Part shown: one piece after another, positions 807 through 60,440 of the stretch | Layout of the letters: each line of letters begins with the position of its first letter | How positions within the stretch are numbered: the first letter of the stretch is position 1 | Assembly (NCBI GenBank): GCA_951406725.2 | Contig: OX597819.1 | Span: 85,126,001-85,190,000 of the forward strand | Direction of reading: 5' to 3' | Length of the DNA: 64,000 nucleotides | DNA from: Octopus vulgaris | Lineage: Eukaryota | Position numbers and translations under genes: made by a program | Notes under the pieces: generated by a model | Seen by the model: only the letters and a program-made list of their open reading frames with translations | Told to the model about the DNA's origin: nothing | Databases searched by the model: none

Positions 807-841
807 GTTTAACGTTTCGAGCGGAGCTCTTCGTCAGAAAC
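807..841 (-). ncRNA. Minimal type-I hammerhead ribozyme-like motif in a Penelope pLTR-like remnant
   Basis: Minus strand: gttt-CTGACGA-a-gagc(tcc)gctc-GAAAC-GTT-aaac; stem I gttt/aaac, stem II gagc/gctc, palindromic AACGTT in place of stem III. Confidence 0.65.
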
Positions 842-1000
842 ATGGGAAAAGGAAAGATCCAATGAAGAGAAGACGGAGGAAAAAAATCGCCAACGGTACA
901 CACGCGGTCACATTTTGAATGTGTAGGTGTAAACACACCAGCATCGGTTGTCAAGCGATGTTGTGGGGATAAACACAGACACAAATACATATATACGTGT

Positions 1001-21066: not shown

Positions 21067-23770
21067 GCACACACATAAGTTCTTGATTTATTAGAATCAT
21101 CGAATTATTTTATCCTCTAGAGGATGTCATAATTATCAAATAGTAATTAAGACCTGCGCCATATCAGAACATGAGATAATCTCAAAACTTGATAAATTCT
21201 CCAAAGTTGTCATGTCATTAAGGAAAAGGACAAGTTTATTGACTGGAAGTTTAGACAATAATCTTGAACACATTTCTGCCTCAATACGTGTCATCAGCAC
21301 GACAATCTTCTTCAGTCATGTTCGGCATAAATCATGTGAGACAAACCCGATCATACACACACTCGCACAAACATATATATCGTGGCGTACCCGTGTGGTA
21401 TCCGACCATTACAATGAAAGTTTCATCAACTATTTGTTGCTCCAACATGTTCAGGTCTTTATTTGCACCGGGAAAAGGGAAAATACAAAGAGTACTGACG
21501 CCTCAAGCATTATAGTGTCAAACGCTTGGGTCACACAAGTGCCACACAAGTGCCACACAAGTGCCACTTTAAAAGTTTGAAGCTTTAAACTAGAGGCAAA
21601 AGCAGATAAAAGCAAGATGATCAGAAACTACAAACACAATAGATTTCATATCAGGCTACCTTCCTCTCATATGAATTTACGTATATATCGTAAATACGCA
21701 TATATCCGATATAGTGTATACGTGTACATACATATATGCACACATTAGTGGGTAGCTGTTAACATTCCTGAATTCATCTACCCTTTCATAGGCCTTGTGT
21801 TTCATTTTTGAATACCATTTGGTAATTTTCACCTTTAGAATTTCCTATTCTTACACCTCCCTCACATTTCCTTATCTTATATTTTGTGTTTGTGATGTCT
21901 TGGTTCAGTTTTTGTTGCTCAGTATTCTCTAGGTGTTCTAAGCGTTTGGATTCGTGGTGGTTTGTTATATCCATTATTATTTTAGCACTCTTTAAGTTTG
22001 TCTTCGACGTTTGTCTTATTTATATTTTGAGGAGATATTGTTTCTTTTAAATGTGGTATTTTAATTGCTGGTATGTTTTTGGTTTTGCAAATAACTCTGT
22101 TTAAATAAGCTAGTCTTTTCGGGATCCGGTAATATATTTAGTTCTAAGGTAATAAAATTTTTCAAAAAATCACAAATACACAAATAATAAACAGAAAACA
22201 ATAGCAGAAATAAAAACATTCAGAATGAAAATCTAAACTAGAATCCACTCAAATATTTCAACGATATGAACCCCCACCCAAAAAAACCCCAAAAAACAAA
22301 ACAAAAACAAAAAAACAATGCACTCAGGCATACACACGTTTTGCTAAATGAACAACCAGTGAAAAAATGACAGAGTCCTATTTTTAACGCTGCCAGTAAC
22401 AGATATGCAGATACTGAAAAACCATCGTGGAGAGAAAAAAATTGCTTGGCAGAACTTTGTGAAGAAGGGCACATTCACTGTCAAGGAATTTCATGATAAT
22501 GCGAGAGCTTTGAATGTTTCTCATCTCTGCATTGTCAAAATCTGAGCAGATTTCTATATGCGTTCAAAAGAGTAAAGATACCCCTGGCCGTCGTGTCCAG
22601 CTGAATCAAACATGAACGAAGTTCTTTTTAGAAGCAGACTGCGTGAAACATGGCTCACCATGTGATGGGCTGCACTACTAAAAAAATTTTCAAGGTGATT
22701 ATTCATTAGGCGTGCTATTCAGAAAGTCCCGCGAGCTGAAGTTGTCAATGACTAAGCTAAATTCCTCTAATGATCTGGGACTGCATGCTTCGTTCAACAC
22801 TAAGAATGCTGGAACGGAAAGCAGCCTGTATGGTAGAATGTCCTGATTAGGTTGTGGCTTCTTAGTTATATGTTAGCGTGTGTTGCCATCTTTAGTTTTG
22901 TATTTAATTTCTATTCCTTATATATTTATTTCCATAATACACACATTTTAATGATTTTGCATAATTAATGATAGCATATAGTGCATGATATCTGTGCTCC
23001 TTCCTCACATTTACCAGTACCTTTGTATACATTTTAATGTACTATTAAATGCAATAGGTCCTGGTGGGTCATTCATTTATACATGCAGTAATGATGATAA
23101 TAACAACAACAACAACAATAATAATGGTTTTAAATTTTTGCACGAAGTCAGCAATTTCAGGAAAGGGGGGATAGCGATTACATTGTCCCAAGTGCTCACC
23201 TGGTGCTTATTTTATCGACTCCGAAAGGATGAAAGCAATGTTGACCTCGGCGGAATTTGAAGTTAGAACGTAGAGACAGACGAAATGCTAATAAAATCGG
23301 AAAACTTTGAAGTGATTTGTAACTTGAAGAAAGTGAATCAATTCAAAGAACTGTGGGTGTTATTCTTTTAGTTTTTCGTCTTTTATGTGCTCCAACTGAA
23401 AGGCTGCGGTCATACTGGGACAATGCCATTATTAACTCTATTTTTTTTATTTGGTTTAAATGCTTACTCGTATTGTCAGAGGAGTCAGAAAGACATATAA
23501 ACGCAACAGAAAGAAATATAAGTGTGATAGATAGAGAAATAGATAAGTAGGTAGTTAGAAGTCGGCAGATCTACAGATATATCAATAGATATGCGGATAG
23601 ATAATAGAAATGAAAAAAAAAAGAAATGAAAATAATCTTTATTGACAAATAACCTGGACTGAGTCTCGTTGCTGTAATGTATAGTGGTGGTATCAGTAGG
23701 GATATTGCTTAGTGGGGGTAGCGGTGGAAATTGGACAGTGAAAAGTTTTTTGGTTTAATATCTTTATATT

Positions 23771-23820
23771 TTTGTCAGTGAACAGGTCGCGGATTTTAGC
23801 GACGAAAATATTTTGACAAA
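23771..23820 (+). ncRNA. Hammerhead-like motif with G3:C8 swapped core
   Basis: tttgtca-GTGAACA-g-gtcgc(ggatttta)gcgac-GAAAATATTT-tgacaaa; 7-bp stem I, 5-bp stem II, palindromic aaaatatttt; at the 5' end of a segment flanked by a 14-bp direct repeat. Confidence 0.6.
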
Positions 23821-24591
23821 TTAAACTTAAATGTTGAAGTGAATCGAACGGCTTTTGTGTGTTTCTTAAATGGCTTATAAACACCTTCCACGCTGCAATT
23901 GTTTTCGTTTCAGCACACGATCTCAGATCAAATTACTTGCTATGCGAGTACATCTCCGTAATATCTTTATATCGCCCATCGTTTAACTCATGCCCTTTAG
24001 TGCAATTAAGTATCGTCTACGAAGTTGAAATTTATATAAACATTACTGATGCCGCATACTTAATGTAAGTTTTGTTTATACGCTTATTAACTGTAGAATT
24101 TCGTCCAGGGAATGTCATCCCCAAAATACATTGAATACCTCAAAACCCGACGAAACGCATAAACAAAACGTATACATTAAGTATGGGACATCAATAATGC
24201 TTATATTATAAAAACAGCTTATAATTTTAAATTTAATTTTGTTTTATTTGTGCGGTGCTGTTAAGCATATCAGCAGATAAATTTTACACTATCTGCATAT
24301 ATACCTCAGACCAGCAATTCGAATTCGTTTTAAGGTATACGGAGCCGATGAACTGAAAAAGCAGTGAAATACCGATATCCACTAATCTCGTTCACTTCTG
24401 GGCAATTAGTTTTGTTAAGTTTTGAAATATTCAGTGTCTTATAACACTCCACGATTGAAAAGAATTTTCTTTGGACGAAATGCTGCAATTATTAAGTGCA
24501 TAAACAAAATAAAATCAGTAAATACAGAATATTAGTAATGCTTACATTATAAGAGCTGCTTTTAATTCAAAATTTTATTCTGAAACTTATA

Positions 24592-24812
24592 TATGTGGGG
24601 TGCTGAAGCGTTCCTGGCTTTCAGGGTGTCGCAAAAGGCCTGGTTGGAGACCCAACTTTCTGAGTTCTTTTACGGGGCTTAGAAAAACTGAAGGATCACT
24701 GCAACATGTGTGTGAATCGGAGACGGGAATATGTGGAATAAAATCGTAATTAACTGATCCTCTTTTATTTTCTTTTACCCAAAGCCAGGAACTTTTCAGC
24801 ACCACCTCGCAT
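24592..24812 (+). mobile_element. Mariner-derived MITE
   Basis: Imperfect TIRs ggggtgctgaagcgttcctggcttt / aaagccaggaacttttcagcaccacc; interior resembles a mariner C-terminus (..GEYVE*). Confidence 0.8.
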
Positions 24813-53117: not shown

Positions 53118-54308
53118 CCAGAAACCGTTACAGAGTGGGTTAGGAATGCCTTGGCTGATGATGCGCATGTATGCGCTGAGACTGAGCCACACCTCTGGCT
53201 CTACCTGGATCGTGAACGGGTGTGGTCACCATATGCCAAGTTCTTCCTGCCACAATTGATGTCCCTGCGAGACGTAGGTGCATGGATCACGCGGGGACCG
53301 AAAATGAGCGAATGACAGGAGTGCAGACATGGACTCGCTCTGTTCTCCTGTGTGAGCAATACTGGCAGCGGGGTTACCACTGCGGATTTTTATAGGGGGT
53401 TGGTAGAGCACATGTTCGACGACGTCCTAGTGGAGACTCTAGGCTTCGACGAAGAACAGCTTGTCAACCTGTTCGGAAGAACATTCGGGCCGAGGTATCT
53501 GGACAACTTCCAGAAATCCCTGACCTGGTTGTGTTACCGAGTGGCTTTGCCAGTTCGAGAGAGGTTGTCAAGGCATAGTGCTAGTATCCCACCCACATGC
53601 CCGAGGTGCGGGCGTGTCAGTGAAACTGTCAAGCACGCCTTCGTACATTTTGAGGAACTAAGGGGACTGATAATCTATGCTGAACAATTGGTGTCAGATA
53701 CGGAAAGAGCACGGTTATCGACTGAGTCTATCATCAGAATTGTGCCGCCTCCCTCCTTTAACAAGGAAAAGGAGGTTTCAGTTTTCTGCGTACTAGCCGT
53801 ATTGAAAGAGACTTTATGGGTGACGTGTGGAAGAAGAATTGAGACAGGCAACTTTATCTCCGAACACGGGTTGGTTAGATTTTTTTAACTACCACCTGTC
53901 CAGAAAGATCAGTCTGGAGAAAAGATGCCTACCTCGATGTCTCGAAGAGCGTTTGAGAAAAGATGGACAAATGTCGTAAGGAAGTTGAGAGTGAATGGGG
54001 CCGCGCTAGTGTAGCCGGTCTGAACAGAAAAAAAAGGAAAAAAAAAAAAAACCGAAGGAAAAATAATAAAAAAAGGATATTATAAAAAGTTAAAGAAAAA
54101 GGAAAAAACCGGCGGGTCGAACACGAACCCAAGCTATATATCAAAATATAATTTAAAAATTCATTTCGATCTCATTGTACTGTGTAAATTCATCCGATTT
54201 CATTATATTCGATTTTTCACTAAGGTATAACCCCAGCCCCCAAATGTTTTTGTTATGTCCTTGTGTTGTCCCCTCTGTGTTATGGCCTGTATGCCGAATA
54301 AAAGAAAT
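53118..54308 (+). mobile_element. 5'-truncated Tx1/L1-group LINE (zf-RVT end and 3' UTR) with 17-bp TSD
   Basis: ORF 53352-53888 has LTWLCYRVALPVRERL..CPRCGRVSETVKHAF; AATAAA near 54296; tagtgaacgtgataaaa at 53101-53117 and 54309-54325. Confidence 0.82.
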
Positions 54309-57584: not shown

Positions 57585-60440
57585 CAGGGGTCTCCAAAGT
57601 ACGGCCCGCGGGCCGGATTCGGCCCGCAAAGGTTTTTAATCCGGCCCGCCGAGCTGTCCTCCAAAATTATAAAACAAATGTCGAAAAACAAGCCTTGCCG
57701 AAATCATACAAAAACAAATATACTTTACACCCCTTTTAATACGTTTGACACATATAGTACAGCAAATAGACGCAAGACGACGCTAATTGATTTGCCATCA
57801 ATTAATGTCTTTAAATTGCGCCGGCGAATTAAAAATTTATACACTAAACTTTAGTGTAAATATAGGTTCTTTTCCACTCCCCCGTTTTAACTGACCCATC
57901 AGAACCACCATAACATGAATTAACTTCGCTATGGAGCTACCTATCATTCATCTTAGATAATAGGCGATTGTCAGTGAGATGGATGGTGCTGCTTACAATG
58001 AAGCAGAGATTCAATTTCTAGCTTTATTGATGTCGCAGAAAAGTCAACCTATTCCGTCAACTGTCGAGAGAGCAGATACGACAAGTATGACGTTAATAAA
58101 AGTCCCGTGCCTAGTATAATAAAAGAAGACAAATATCGATTTATCGATGTTACCTACATCTCACGAGCGATGAATAGAGAGGGTTGAGCCTGACGTTGTG
58201 TGGTGGTTTCTAATCCTGGTGCAGTCGCCAATCAGCGTGGAGTAAAGTTCGATGCGCATTCCGTCAGTCAGCACAGACTTGGCGTTTTCGTTGTGCACAA
58301 GTGTGAGTCATTTGTCGTCGTCGCTGCCGAAGTGAATGCACGTATCGAGTGACCTGTGAATATTGTTTTTACTTGTTTCGTCCTTTTACATATATCGTCG
58401 AGCAAAATCTGTCGACCCATGGTAAAAATGTTAGCTCAAGGAAGAAAACGAAAAATCGACTCTGAGTGTAGAGTTTTTAAGGAACAATGGAACATAGACT
58501 ATTTTGTCATAGAGTCAAACAACAAGGCACTATGCGTTATATGCACCGACACAATTGCAGTACTTAAAGAGTACAACATTCGGAGACATTATGAAAAAAA
58601 GCATTCATCACAGTACTACCAATTCATTGGACAGCTACGTAAAGAGAAATTTGACAAATTAAAGAAGAATTTATCATCAATGCAGTTTGTTTTCAAGAAG
58701 AAGGCTGTAGAAAAAGAGAGAGCAACAAGAGCAAGCTTCCATGTTGCTAACCTTTTGGCGAAGAAAGGTAAGCCATTTACAGATGGTGAACTTATTAAAA
58801 AGTGCTTGAATGAGGTAGCTAAGGAAATGTGTCCAGAAAACGTAGATTTATTTTCCGCAATTAGTCTTTCTGCGAACACTGTTGCTCGTAGGGTTGAACA
58901 TATTGAAAGAAATATTAAATCACAGCTAAAAGACAAAGCCAGCAAGTTTGTATGCTTTTCTGTTGCACTTGATGAGTCAATTGATGTATCAGACACATCC
59001 CAATTGTTATTGTTCATCAGAGGAATAAATGCCAATTTTGAGATTACTGAGGAACTTGTATCTGTGCACAGCATGCATGGAACAACAACAGGCATAGATA
59101 TTTTTAGAGAAGTGGAAAAGTCAGTGGCTGAGTATAATTTGGAATGGAAAAAACTAAAATGCATAACAACAGATGGTGGCAGAAATATGTGTGGAACCAA
59201 AAAGGGCTTAGTTGGGCAAATTAACAAAGTAATTGAGAATTCCGGTGGATTGAAACCTTTGGTATTGCATTGTATTCTTCATCAGCAAGCACTGTGTGGA
59301 AAGCATCTTGATTTATCATCTGTATTAGATCCTGTGATTTCCACTGTTAACTACATAAGATCTCATGGACTCAAACATCGCAAATTTCGTGATTTCTTGG
59401 AGGAAATGAATGCTGAGTTTCCAGACCTACCTTACTATACTTCAGTAAGATGGCTTAGCTATGGAAAAATTCTGGCTAGATTTTTTGAGCTTCGAACTGA
59501 AATTGAAATATTTTTAAATGAGAAAAACCATTCACAGGTGTTGCTCAAAGACAGTGAATGGCTCTGGAAATTAGCATTTTCAGCCGATTTAACTACGCAT
59601 CTCAATGATTTCAACCTACGGATACAAGGTGAAACTTCACTCATCTGTGATTTGTACTCAAAGGTGAAAGCTTTTCGTAAGAAATTAATACTATTTGAAA
59701 GTCAGTTAACAAGAAGCTGCTTTACTCATTTTTCACGATGTGACAAATATAGACAGGAAGCTGCCACTCCATTTCCAAACTTGTTTGCTCAAGATGTCAT
59801 TTTAGCTTTGAAACAACAGTTTGAAGAACGTTTTTCTGATCTTGATGCATGTTCTTCAAAACTAAGAATTTTTGAAAATCCATTTAACTCTGTTATTGGA
59901 GACTTAACTTCTGAGTTACAAATGGAAGTTATTGATTTGCAATCCAATGACATCCTGAAGGACAAATATAAAGAGGGAAATTTGATTGAATTCTACAAAT
60001 GCCTTCCATCCGACCAATTTCTTCATTTAAGGAGGTTTGCCTGTGAATTCATTTCAGTTTTTGGCACCACATATTTGTGTGAGAAGACTTTTTCAAAGAT
60101 GAAATACACAAAATCCTGCTAAAGATCACAATTGTCTGATGAACATTTAAATGCATTGCTTGTTATTGGAACCACTCATTTTGAACCTCAGTTGGACAAA
60201 ATTTTGTCAGAAATGAAACAATTTCATGTTTCCCCTATTGATCAAAGTTAAAAAAAACATGTTAATTGTTACTGATATTATATACATTGTGATTATGTAC
60301 TGAATAAATAACCTTTTTTAATTATTAATTCACTATTTATTTATATTATTTTGGTAAAATAAATAATTTAGAACCTTGGCCCCCGTAGCTTTAAAAATTC
60401 AGCAATGTGGCCCTCCGCTGGAAAACTTTGGAGACCCCTG
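57585..60440 (+). mobile_element. Full-length hAT DNA transposon, Buster/Charlie/SPIN group
   Basis: Perfect 16-bp TIRs caggggtctccaaagt (57585-57600) / actttggagacccctg (60425-60440); 8-bp TSD gcttagtg (57577-57584, 60441-60448) with central TA. Confidence 0.97.
58419..60251 (+). pseudogene. hAT transposase (SPIN/GTF2IRD2-like) with one premature stop at 60120-60122
   Basis: BED finger CVIC..RRHYEKKH, ALDESIDVSD, TTDGG, CILH, RWLS, YLCEKTFS; after TAA the same frame continues RSQLSDEHL...PIDQS for 42 codons to 60251. Confidence 0.93.

What the first reader, a model, noticed from the sequence alone, without database searches (positions are those of the whole stretch)
23756..23972. Short insertion headed by a hammerhead-like fold with a G3:C8 compensatory core
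Seen: taatatctttatat (14 bp) at 23756-23769 and 23959-23972 flanks 189 bp. Its first 50 nt fold as 7-bp stem I, GUGAACA-g, 5-bp stem II, GAAA and palindromic aaaauauuuu. Known: C3 and G8 form a tertiary Watson-Crick pair, and swapping both partly rescues activity. Inference: a rare natural G3:C8 hammerhead in a mobile non-autonomous retroelement, which canonical CUGANGA searches would miss.
Basis: partly seen in the sequence, partly recalled or inferred. Interest (0 to 1): 0.82.

Follow-up and report, generated by a model that had tools for sequence, protein, structure and literature searches.

The report
Swapped-core hammerhead in octopus Penelope retroelement
This 200-base insertion is one of thousands of truncated copies of a protein-coding Penelope-like jumping gene, and it carries a hammerhead-ribozyme fold whose core C-G pair is naturally reversed to G-C, a swap we found in print only as a lab mutant; it likely still cuts itself weakly, but cutting is untested.

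Summary
Observation confirmed: a 14-bp direct repeat flanks 189 bp that open with a type I hammerhead fold (z -4.0) with G3, C8, an extra G, a palindromic stem III and U17; Rfam misses it. It is neither rare nor a separate non-autonomous element. The core 20-mer occurs 5,777 times in G000. The unit is the 3' end (hammerhead plus first 31 codons) of a Penelope-like element encoding RT and GIY-YIG: 25 of 30 endonuclease loci carry it downstream. It shows the PLE hallmarks of two 3' ends, inverted pairs and AT-rich target duplications. Across 10 RT-linked relatives, positions 3:8 are always Watson-Crick (C:G 5, U:A 4, G:C 1), and all stems covary (0 of 500 shuffles). The closest family (54% protein identity) has C3:G8, so the swap is compensatory. 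Against strong activity: the predicted fold pairs G3 with U17, and 0 of 102 copies start at the cleavage site. Cleavage is untested. Eight literature searches found natural U3:A8 but no natural G3:C8; one key paper was unavailable. The scan's unchecked notes report similar swaps behind PLE RTs in other genomes. Verdict: new variant of a known kind.

The parts
23756..23769 (+). 5' copy of the 14-bp target-site duplication (last 2 nt also match the element leader)
23770..23962 (+). 5'-truncated copy of a Penelope-like element: pLTR end with hammerhead, plus ORF start and tail; lacks about 13 nt of the leader found in longer copies
23771..23820 (+). Minimal type I hammerhead motif: stem I 23771-77/23814-20, stem II 23786-90/23799-803, extra G 23785, GAAA 23804-07, palindromic stem III 23807-12, predicted cleavage after U17 at 23813
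23778..23784 (+). Core 3-9 with G3 (23778) and C8 (23783) in place of C3 and G8
   Evidence: sequence; covariation; copy survey
23870..23962 (+). First 31 codons of the element's RT-endonuclease ORF (start codon presumed)
23897..23962 (+). PLE 'tail' between the two common 3' ends (about 23897-23906 and 23952-23962), the inferred two reverse-transcription start sites
   Evidence: model from PMC11167929
23959..23972 (+). 3' copy of the target-site duplication (first 4 nt shared with the element's body)

Best explanation
The insertion is a 5'-truncated copy of the 3' end of a Penelope-like retrotransposon family that encodes RT and a GIY-YIG endonuclease, and it carries the family's minimal type I hammerhead with a naturally reversed G3:C8 core pair that likely keeps weak self-cleavage after U17. 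Shown: copy number, link to the coding element, ORF start inside the unit, two 3' ends, target duplications, and covariation of 3:8 and all stems across related families. Inferred from the PAc model: the endonuclease nicked the AT-rich target, the RT started inside the ORF at the second start site and copied about 190 nt of uncleaved RNA, and repair left the 14-bp duplication. Inferred: the ribozyme would work as a dimer through the 6-nt palindrome and/or with help from the element's protein, slowly enough that uncleaved RNA is the usual template.
For: 5,777 exact core 20-mers, control 0. The unit lies downstream of the GIY-YIG exon in the same orientation in 25 of 30 loci (one of the 25 partial). 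L128 runs hammerhead, ORF start, RT, endonuclease, pLTR, hammerhead, tail. [quoted passage not shown] 3' ends are bimodal: 44 of 102 at 141-150 and 55 of 102 at 196-209, and the sister family ends at homologous codons. Flank duplications of 9 nt or more in 7 of 18 single-arm copies versus 1 of 306 mismatched pairs. Ten RT-linked families: 3:8 = C:G 5, U:A 4, G:C 1; 96% of cells paired; 10 of 11 pairs changed on both sides; 0 of 500 shuffles; slid controls 24-45%. The sister family (SH-aLRT 100) has C3:G8 and a compensated stem II. Subfamily variation falls in loop II, the leader and a wobble-preserving stem I site, not in core 3-9. The C3G/G8C double mutant partly restores a PLE hammerhead while single mutants are dead (PMC11167929).
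Against: No cleavage data. 0 of 102 copies begin within 2 nt of the predicted cleavage product; this fits PAc but gives no in-vivo trace of cutting. The MFE pairs G3 with U17, 1.3 kcal/mol below the open core, like the inactive C3-G17 trap (PMC3884650). The 6-nt palindromic duplex is only -0.2 kcal/mol, while a competing 10-nt duplex that sequesters A13, A14 and U17 is -3.8. The sister family and L204 have C9 instead of A9, and L202 has U15.1:A16.1, so the core of this clade is relaxed. G:C is one evolutionary event among related rows. Pfam did not call the RT. No single copy with a complete unbroken ORF was seen among the 20 stretches.
Confidence: 0.68

Rival explanations
1. Same element and same fold, but the motif no longer cleaves. 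It is kept as a hammerhead-shaped structure for dimerisation, protein binding or translation control just upstream of the ORF, with 3:8 pairing needed only for the fold.
For: No copy starts at the cleavage site (0 of 102). G3.U17 wobble and a competing 10-nt duplex. A9C in the two closest relatives that have a motif call. Hammerhead mutants do not affect PAc insertion in vitro (PMC11167929).
Against: U4, G5, A6, G12, A13, A14 and G10.1:C11.1 are invariant in 10 of 10 families. The 3:8 tertiary pair belongs to the catalytically competent conformation (established knowledge). Known PLE hammerheads do cleave weakly (PMC4209133).
Confidence: 0.22
2. The hammerhead is a dead passenger: two unrelated substitutions were fixed by drift in the master element and happen to be complementary.
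For: G:C is seen in one lineage only. Within the family, conservation mostly reflects recent descent (single changes in 5 of 100).
Against: 10 of 10 related families are Watson-Crick at 3:8, in three different ways. Subfamily changes avoid the core and keep the stems.
Confidence: 0.07
3. A self-standing non-autonomous retrozyme or SINE of about 200 nt that spreads through its own hammerhead-made circular RNA.
For: About a third of copies start at one sharp 5' boundary just before the leader. Short copies far outnumber endonuclease-bearing ones (5,777 versus 381 candidates). Retrozymes are reported to derive from PLE pLTRs (bioRxiv 10.64898/2026.07.22.740005).
Against: The window copy matches the ends of coding elements at 99-100% and includes the ORF start. 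Pairs are head-to-head inverted rather than tandem, and ends do not map to the cleavage site.
Confidence: 0.03

Closest known systems
Minimal type I hammerheads (min-HHR) of metazoan Penelope-like elements (Cervera and de la Pena 2014, PMC4209133)
   Same: Sits in the pLTR; extra nucleotide between 9 and 10.1; G10.1-C11.1; palindromic positions from 15.2 to 16.2; U17 common in their alignment; thousands of single truncated copies; close pairs on opposite strands; natural 3:8 covariation (U3-A8).
   Different: G3:C8 instead of C3:G8 or U3:A8 (no G3 core in the text parts read or in the 4 word-start GUGA hits of supplement file 2); longer stem I (7 bp).
PAc (Poseidon of Anolis carolinensis; Frangieh et al. 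2024, PMC11167929)
   Same: Hammerhead at the pLTR-ORF junction; tail between two RT start sites inside the ORF start; AT-rich (ATT) targets; uncleaved RNA as template; engineered C3G/G8C is partly active.
   Different: PAc has natural C3:G8 and its ORF begins in stem II. Here the presumed ATG is 57 nt after U17, and the protein has a Zn-finger-like RT-EN linker that Penelope/Poseidon lack.
Nematis/Neptune clades of EN+ PLEs (Craig et al. 2021, PMC8557442)
   Same: C-terminal GIY-YIG with a CX2-5CxxC linker, (TA)n insertion bias, inverted 5'-truncated partner copies, tail at one end.
   Different: Linker spacing (CxxC-x7-C) looks like the Nematis rows, not the Neptune rows, of their Figure S2 (by eye); no tree with named references was built. 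The tail is about 57 nt rather than 30-40.
Natural core variants of hammerheads (Perreault et al. 2011, PMC3088659; PMC10085705)
   Same: Compensatory U3:A8, U15.1:A16.1 and position-9 variants are natural and can be active.
   Different: G3:C8 is not among the natural variants in the sections read.

Membership tests
EN+ Penelope-like element | Single ORF with PLE-type RT and C-terminal GIY-YIG | tested here: met
   GIY-YIG above Pfam cut-off on P0001; RT motifs read in P0002; 136 homologues, some named reverse transcriptase. Pfam RVT_1 did not fire on P0002.
EN+ Penelope-like element | Partial tandem forming pLTRs; inverted 5'-truncated partner | tested here: met
   L128 tandem; L062, L125, L126 inverted; short inverted pairs
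EN+ Penelope-like element | Optional 3' tail (two 3' ends) | tested here: met
   44 and 55 of 102 ends in two clusters; same in the sister family
EN+ Penelope-like element | AT-rich targets, variable target duplication | tested here: met
   7 of 18 versus 1 of 306; 36 of 54 single-arm copies were set aside for microsatellite flanks
EN+ Penelope-like element | Intron retained in the pLTR | tested here: inconclusive
   A branch-point/pyrimidine/AG-like signal precedes the leader; no splice joint could be tested
Nematis versus Neptune clade | RT phylogeny with named references | not tested
   Only linker spacing compared by eye with Fig. S2 of PMC8557442
Hammerhead ribozyme (type I, minimal) | Stems I and II around the core, stem III as a palindrome | tested here: met
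Hammerhead ribozyme (type I, minimal) | Literal CUGANGA consensus | tested here: not met
   G3 and C8; no Rfam hit at E<=10
Hammerhead ribozyme (type I, minimal) | Watson-Crick pair 3:8 plus U4, G5, A6, A9, G12, A13, A14, A15.1:U16.1, H17 | tested here: met
   All present in the window; covariation
Hammerhead ribozyme (type I, minimal) | Self-cleavage after position 17 | not testable with these tools
   Only contigs were available; the genomic footprint is negative
Non-LTR retrozyme | Head-to-tail tandem non-coding units of 150-400 nt | tested here: not met
   No tandem array at the site; sampled pairs are inverted and the unit includes an ORF start

The most novel reading that the evidence does not exclude
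The first natural, catalytically active G3:C8 hammerhead, fixed in a successful retroelement family with thousands of copies, inside a PLE clade that cycles through C:G, U:A and G:C at 3:8 and tolerates A9C. U17 may be kept to avoid a G3-C17 trap, and such attenuated cores may be tuned so that uncleaved RNA stays available as RT template. A whole set of ribozymes would then be hidden from CUGANGA and Rfam searches.
Probability: 0.4. Interest if true: 0.72.

Novelty: new variant of a known kind. Interest (0 to 1): 0.52.

Why it matters
The C3:G8 tertiary pair was established by an engineered swap; natural U3:A8 is known, and this adds the natural G:C swap with evolutionary covariation behind it. 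It offers a ready natural series (C:G, U:A, G:C, A9C in homologous elements) for asking how much cleavage PLEs need, which is an open question, and shows that consensus-based hammerhead surveys undercount high-copy families.

Tried and rejected
A DNA search of G000 with the 189-bp unit returned nothing because common words are skipped; patterns were used instead. GIY-YIG family search first led to a different PLE family with a U3:A8 motif, only about 22% identical to ours; it is not the partner. The continuation in L059 is a unique insertion into another PLE (1 match), not the body. L075 is a chance neighbour of that other family. One search used a mis-indexed structure string and is void; one search is the corrected count. 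Expression: no RNA holder on record was listed and all runs were contigs, so neither expression nor cleavage ends could be judged. The empty site could not be sought (no relatives for G000). The sharp 5' boundary may be a splice acceptor or a transcription start with a copied cap G; one clear extra G (L287) is too little to decide. The tree is the quick IQ-TREE version; the careful search did not finish. Rfam miRNA hits at 24032-24208 are far below their gathering scores and were dismissed. Lunse et al. (PMC5785218) was not held.

Full report
OBSERVATION. The 14-bp direct repeat is exact at 23756-23769 and 23959-23972 and occurs only there in the window. The first 53 nt inside fold as a long stem I with a 5-bp stem II (-15.4 kcal/mol, z -4.0). 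In hammerhead numbering: G3 23778, U4, G5, A6, A7, C8 23783, A9, an extra G, stem II, G12-A13-A14-A15.1, a 6-nt palindrome (23807-12), U17 at 23813, then stem I. A generic type I descriptor gave 4 hits in the 64 kb; this one has the G:C core. Rfam shows no hammerhead here at E<=10.

A HIGH-COPY REPEAT. G000 has 2.8 Gb. A protein that its source labels Octopus vulgaris matches it at 100%, so the host is that species or very near. The core 20-mer occurs 5,777 times, reversed control 0. A 25-mer from the 3' half occurs 9,787 times, and 3,166 copies span two anchors outside the hammerhead. Copies often lie in head-to-head pairs and in (TA)n.

PART OF A CODING PENELOPE-LIKE ELEMENT. L062, one such pair 2.5 kb apart, holds a GIY-YIG C-terminus with a CxxxCxxC linker, about 1 kb of pLTR, then the same unit. 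Of the 30 loci returned for this endonuclease DNA (41 matches, 381 candidates), 25 carry the unit 0.5-1.2 kb downstream on the same strand, one only in part; two of the other five have it further out (L128, L131). L128 reads hammerhead, ORF start, RT, endonuclease, pLTR, hammerhead, tail; its ORF has a stop and a frameshift. L112 has 839 open codons to the C-terminus. The presumed ATG is window 23870, so 23870-23962 are the first 31 codons. RT motifs were read by eye (DKSG, YGLRKDHK, YVDD; labels recalled); Pfam RVT_1 did not fire. Linker spacing resembles the Nematis rows of Fig. S2 in PMC8557442 (by eye).

ENDS. Among 102 arms from contig C1 anchored on the ORF start (roughly the first 100 listed; about eight rows repeat a junction because they lie in larger duplications), 3' ends cluster at unit positions 141-150 (44) and 196-209 (55; 209 is the cap of the reference). 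43 start calls fall at -5..+2 of the leader, of which 8 are artefacts of a near-palindrome. None starts at 56-60, where a cleaved RNA would begin. The sister family ends at +26 and +82-85 of its homologous ORF start. In single-arm copies, after setting aside 36 of 54 with microsatellite flanks, 7 of 18 share 9-13 nt between flanks versus 1 of 306 mismatched pairs. This matches the PAc mechanism: nicking of AT-rich DNA, two RT start sites within the ORF start, uncleaved RNA as template (PMC11167929, text parts 1-2 of 4 and passages).

IS G3:C8 COMPENSATORY? Within the family, 95 of the first 100 listed (6,024 total) are G3:C8, 5 have a single change and none is C3:G8. In 60 copies anchored outside the motif (a set I enriched for divergent copies) G3 is 56 and C8 55 of 60, similar to neighbouring columns. 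This is decay after insertion and says little either way. Shared subfamily variants lie in the leader, loop II and one stem I site that keeps a wobble; four contig sets show no variant at 5% or more in core 3-9. The informative test is across families. The closest relative (54% identity, SH-aLRT 100 in a quick tree) has C3:G8, C9 and a compensated stem II. Of 57 metagenome loci, L202-L236 were scanned without a constraint on 3:8. Six gave the same architecture on the coding strand (L203, L204, L205, L208, L218, L223), and I picked two more by eye (L202, L206). L231 looked degenerate, and L209, L210, L220, L221 and L227 showed none in the downstream sequence printed; these six were left out. 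On the 10 motifs, 3:8 is C:G 5, U:A 4, G:C 1; 96% of cells pair; 10 of 11 pairs change on both sides; 0 of 500 shuffles reach this and slid controls give 24-45%. Caveats: the motifs were chosen for their stems, so stem pairing is partly built in; the rows are related; G:C is one event.

AGAINST STRONG ACTIVITY. The MFE pairs G3 with U17 (1.3 kcal/mol better than the open core). The 6-nt dimer helix is -0.2 kcal/mol against -3.8 for a 10-nt duplex that buries A13, A14 and U17. PMC3884650 (passages) describes an analogous inactive 3-17 pairing and notes that a G3-C8 variant is less active with C17 than with G17. No copy starts at the cleavage site. Close relatives carry C9 or U15.1:A16.1. No RNA ends could be examined.

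LITERATURE. PMC4209133 (text parts 1-2 of 4; supplement file 2 searched, file 1 not searchable): min-HHRs of PLEs have the extra nucleotide, the palindrome, low dimer activity and natural U3-A8. PMC3088659 (passages and section 8): natural U3-A8, no G3-C8 named. PMC10085705 (passages and section 14): natural A9U and U15.1-A16.1. PMC8495972 (one passage): C3G partly rescues G8C. PMC8557442 (passages, supplement search and part 54): PLE structure. PMC6765202 (passages). bioRxiv 10.64898/2026.07.22.740005 (part 1 of 5; supplements closed). Eight searches found no natural G3:C8. Lunse et al., which covers many PLE hammerhead variants, was not held, and figures and unseen supplements may bear on novelty. 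The scan's own unchecked notes mention G3-C8 swaps with an extra nucleotide behind PLE RTs in two other windows; I did not test them.

VERDICT. A real feature: a truncated copy of a known kind of element carrying a hammerhead of a known kind, with a core pair not found in print as natural and here supported by cross-family covariation. It most likely works as a weak, dimer- or protein-dependent ribozyme (0.68 for the whole account); a non-cleaving structural role is the main rival (0.22). New variant of a known kind, interest 0.52.

Noticed in passing
window 24340-24384 (+), within about 24030-24600: A second, decayed canonical type I hammerhead (Rfam HH9 14.9 bits) in an old repeat family (40 matches, 69-85% identity apart from itself). 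Several relatives keep CUGAUGA, a 4-bp stem II and a palindromic stem III. Direct repeat spacing 341 nt and two copies about 350 nt apart in L325: retrozyme-like.
   Followed up: partly
L177:58 and 4646; L204:2497: The sister PLE family in G000 (young, open frames to 1,312 aa) and a metagenome relative have C at hammerhead position 9.
   Followed up: partly
L038-L059, L069, L070: A more distant, abundant PLE family (781-aa open frames) with a U3:A8 hammerhead motif and, in most copies, no extra nucleotide.
   Followed up: partly
L062:3575-3605; L115:7140-7170: A branch-point-like, pyrimidine-rich, AG-ending stretch lies right before the leader where about a third of short copies begin: either a splice acceptor or a transcription start.
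   Followed up: partly
L202:4965-5017: Relative with U15.1:A16.1 inversion and a fully palindromic stem III.
   Followed up: no
L011, L304, L305, L308, L309, L312: The same inverted-pair junction recurs at six places on C1, so one copy was spread inside a larger repeat.
   Followed up: no
window 58353-60122 (+) and 53316-53888 (+): 589-aa frame with Spin-doc zinc finger and weak DUF4371 (hAT-like transposase, label recalled), and a zf-RVT LINE fragment.
   Followed up: no
window about 830-865 (-); L065, L184: Another small CUGANGA minimal hammerhead motif with an extra A.
   Followed up: no
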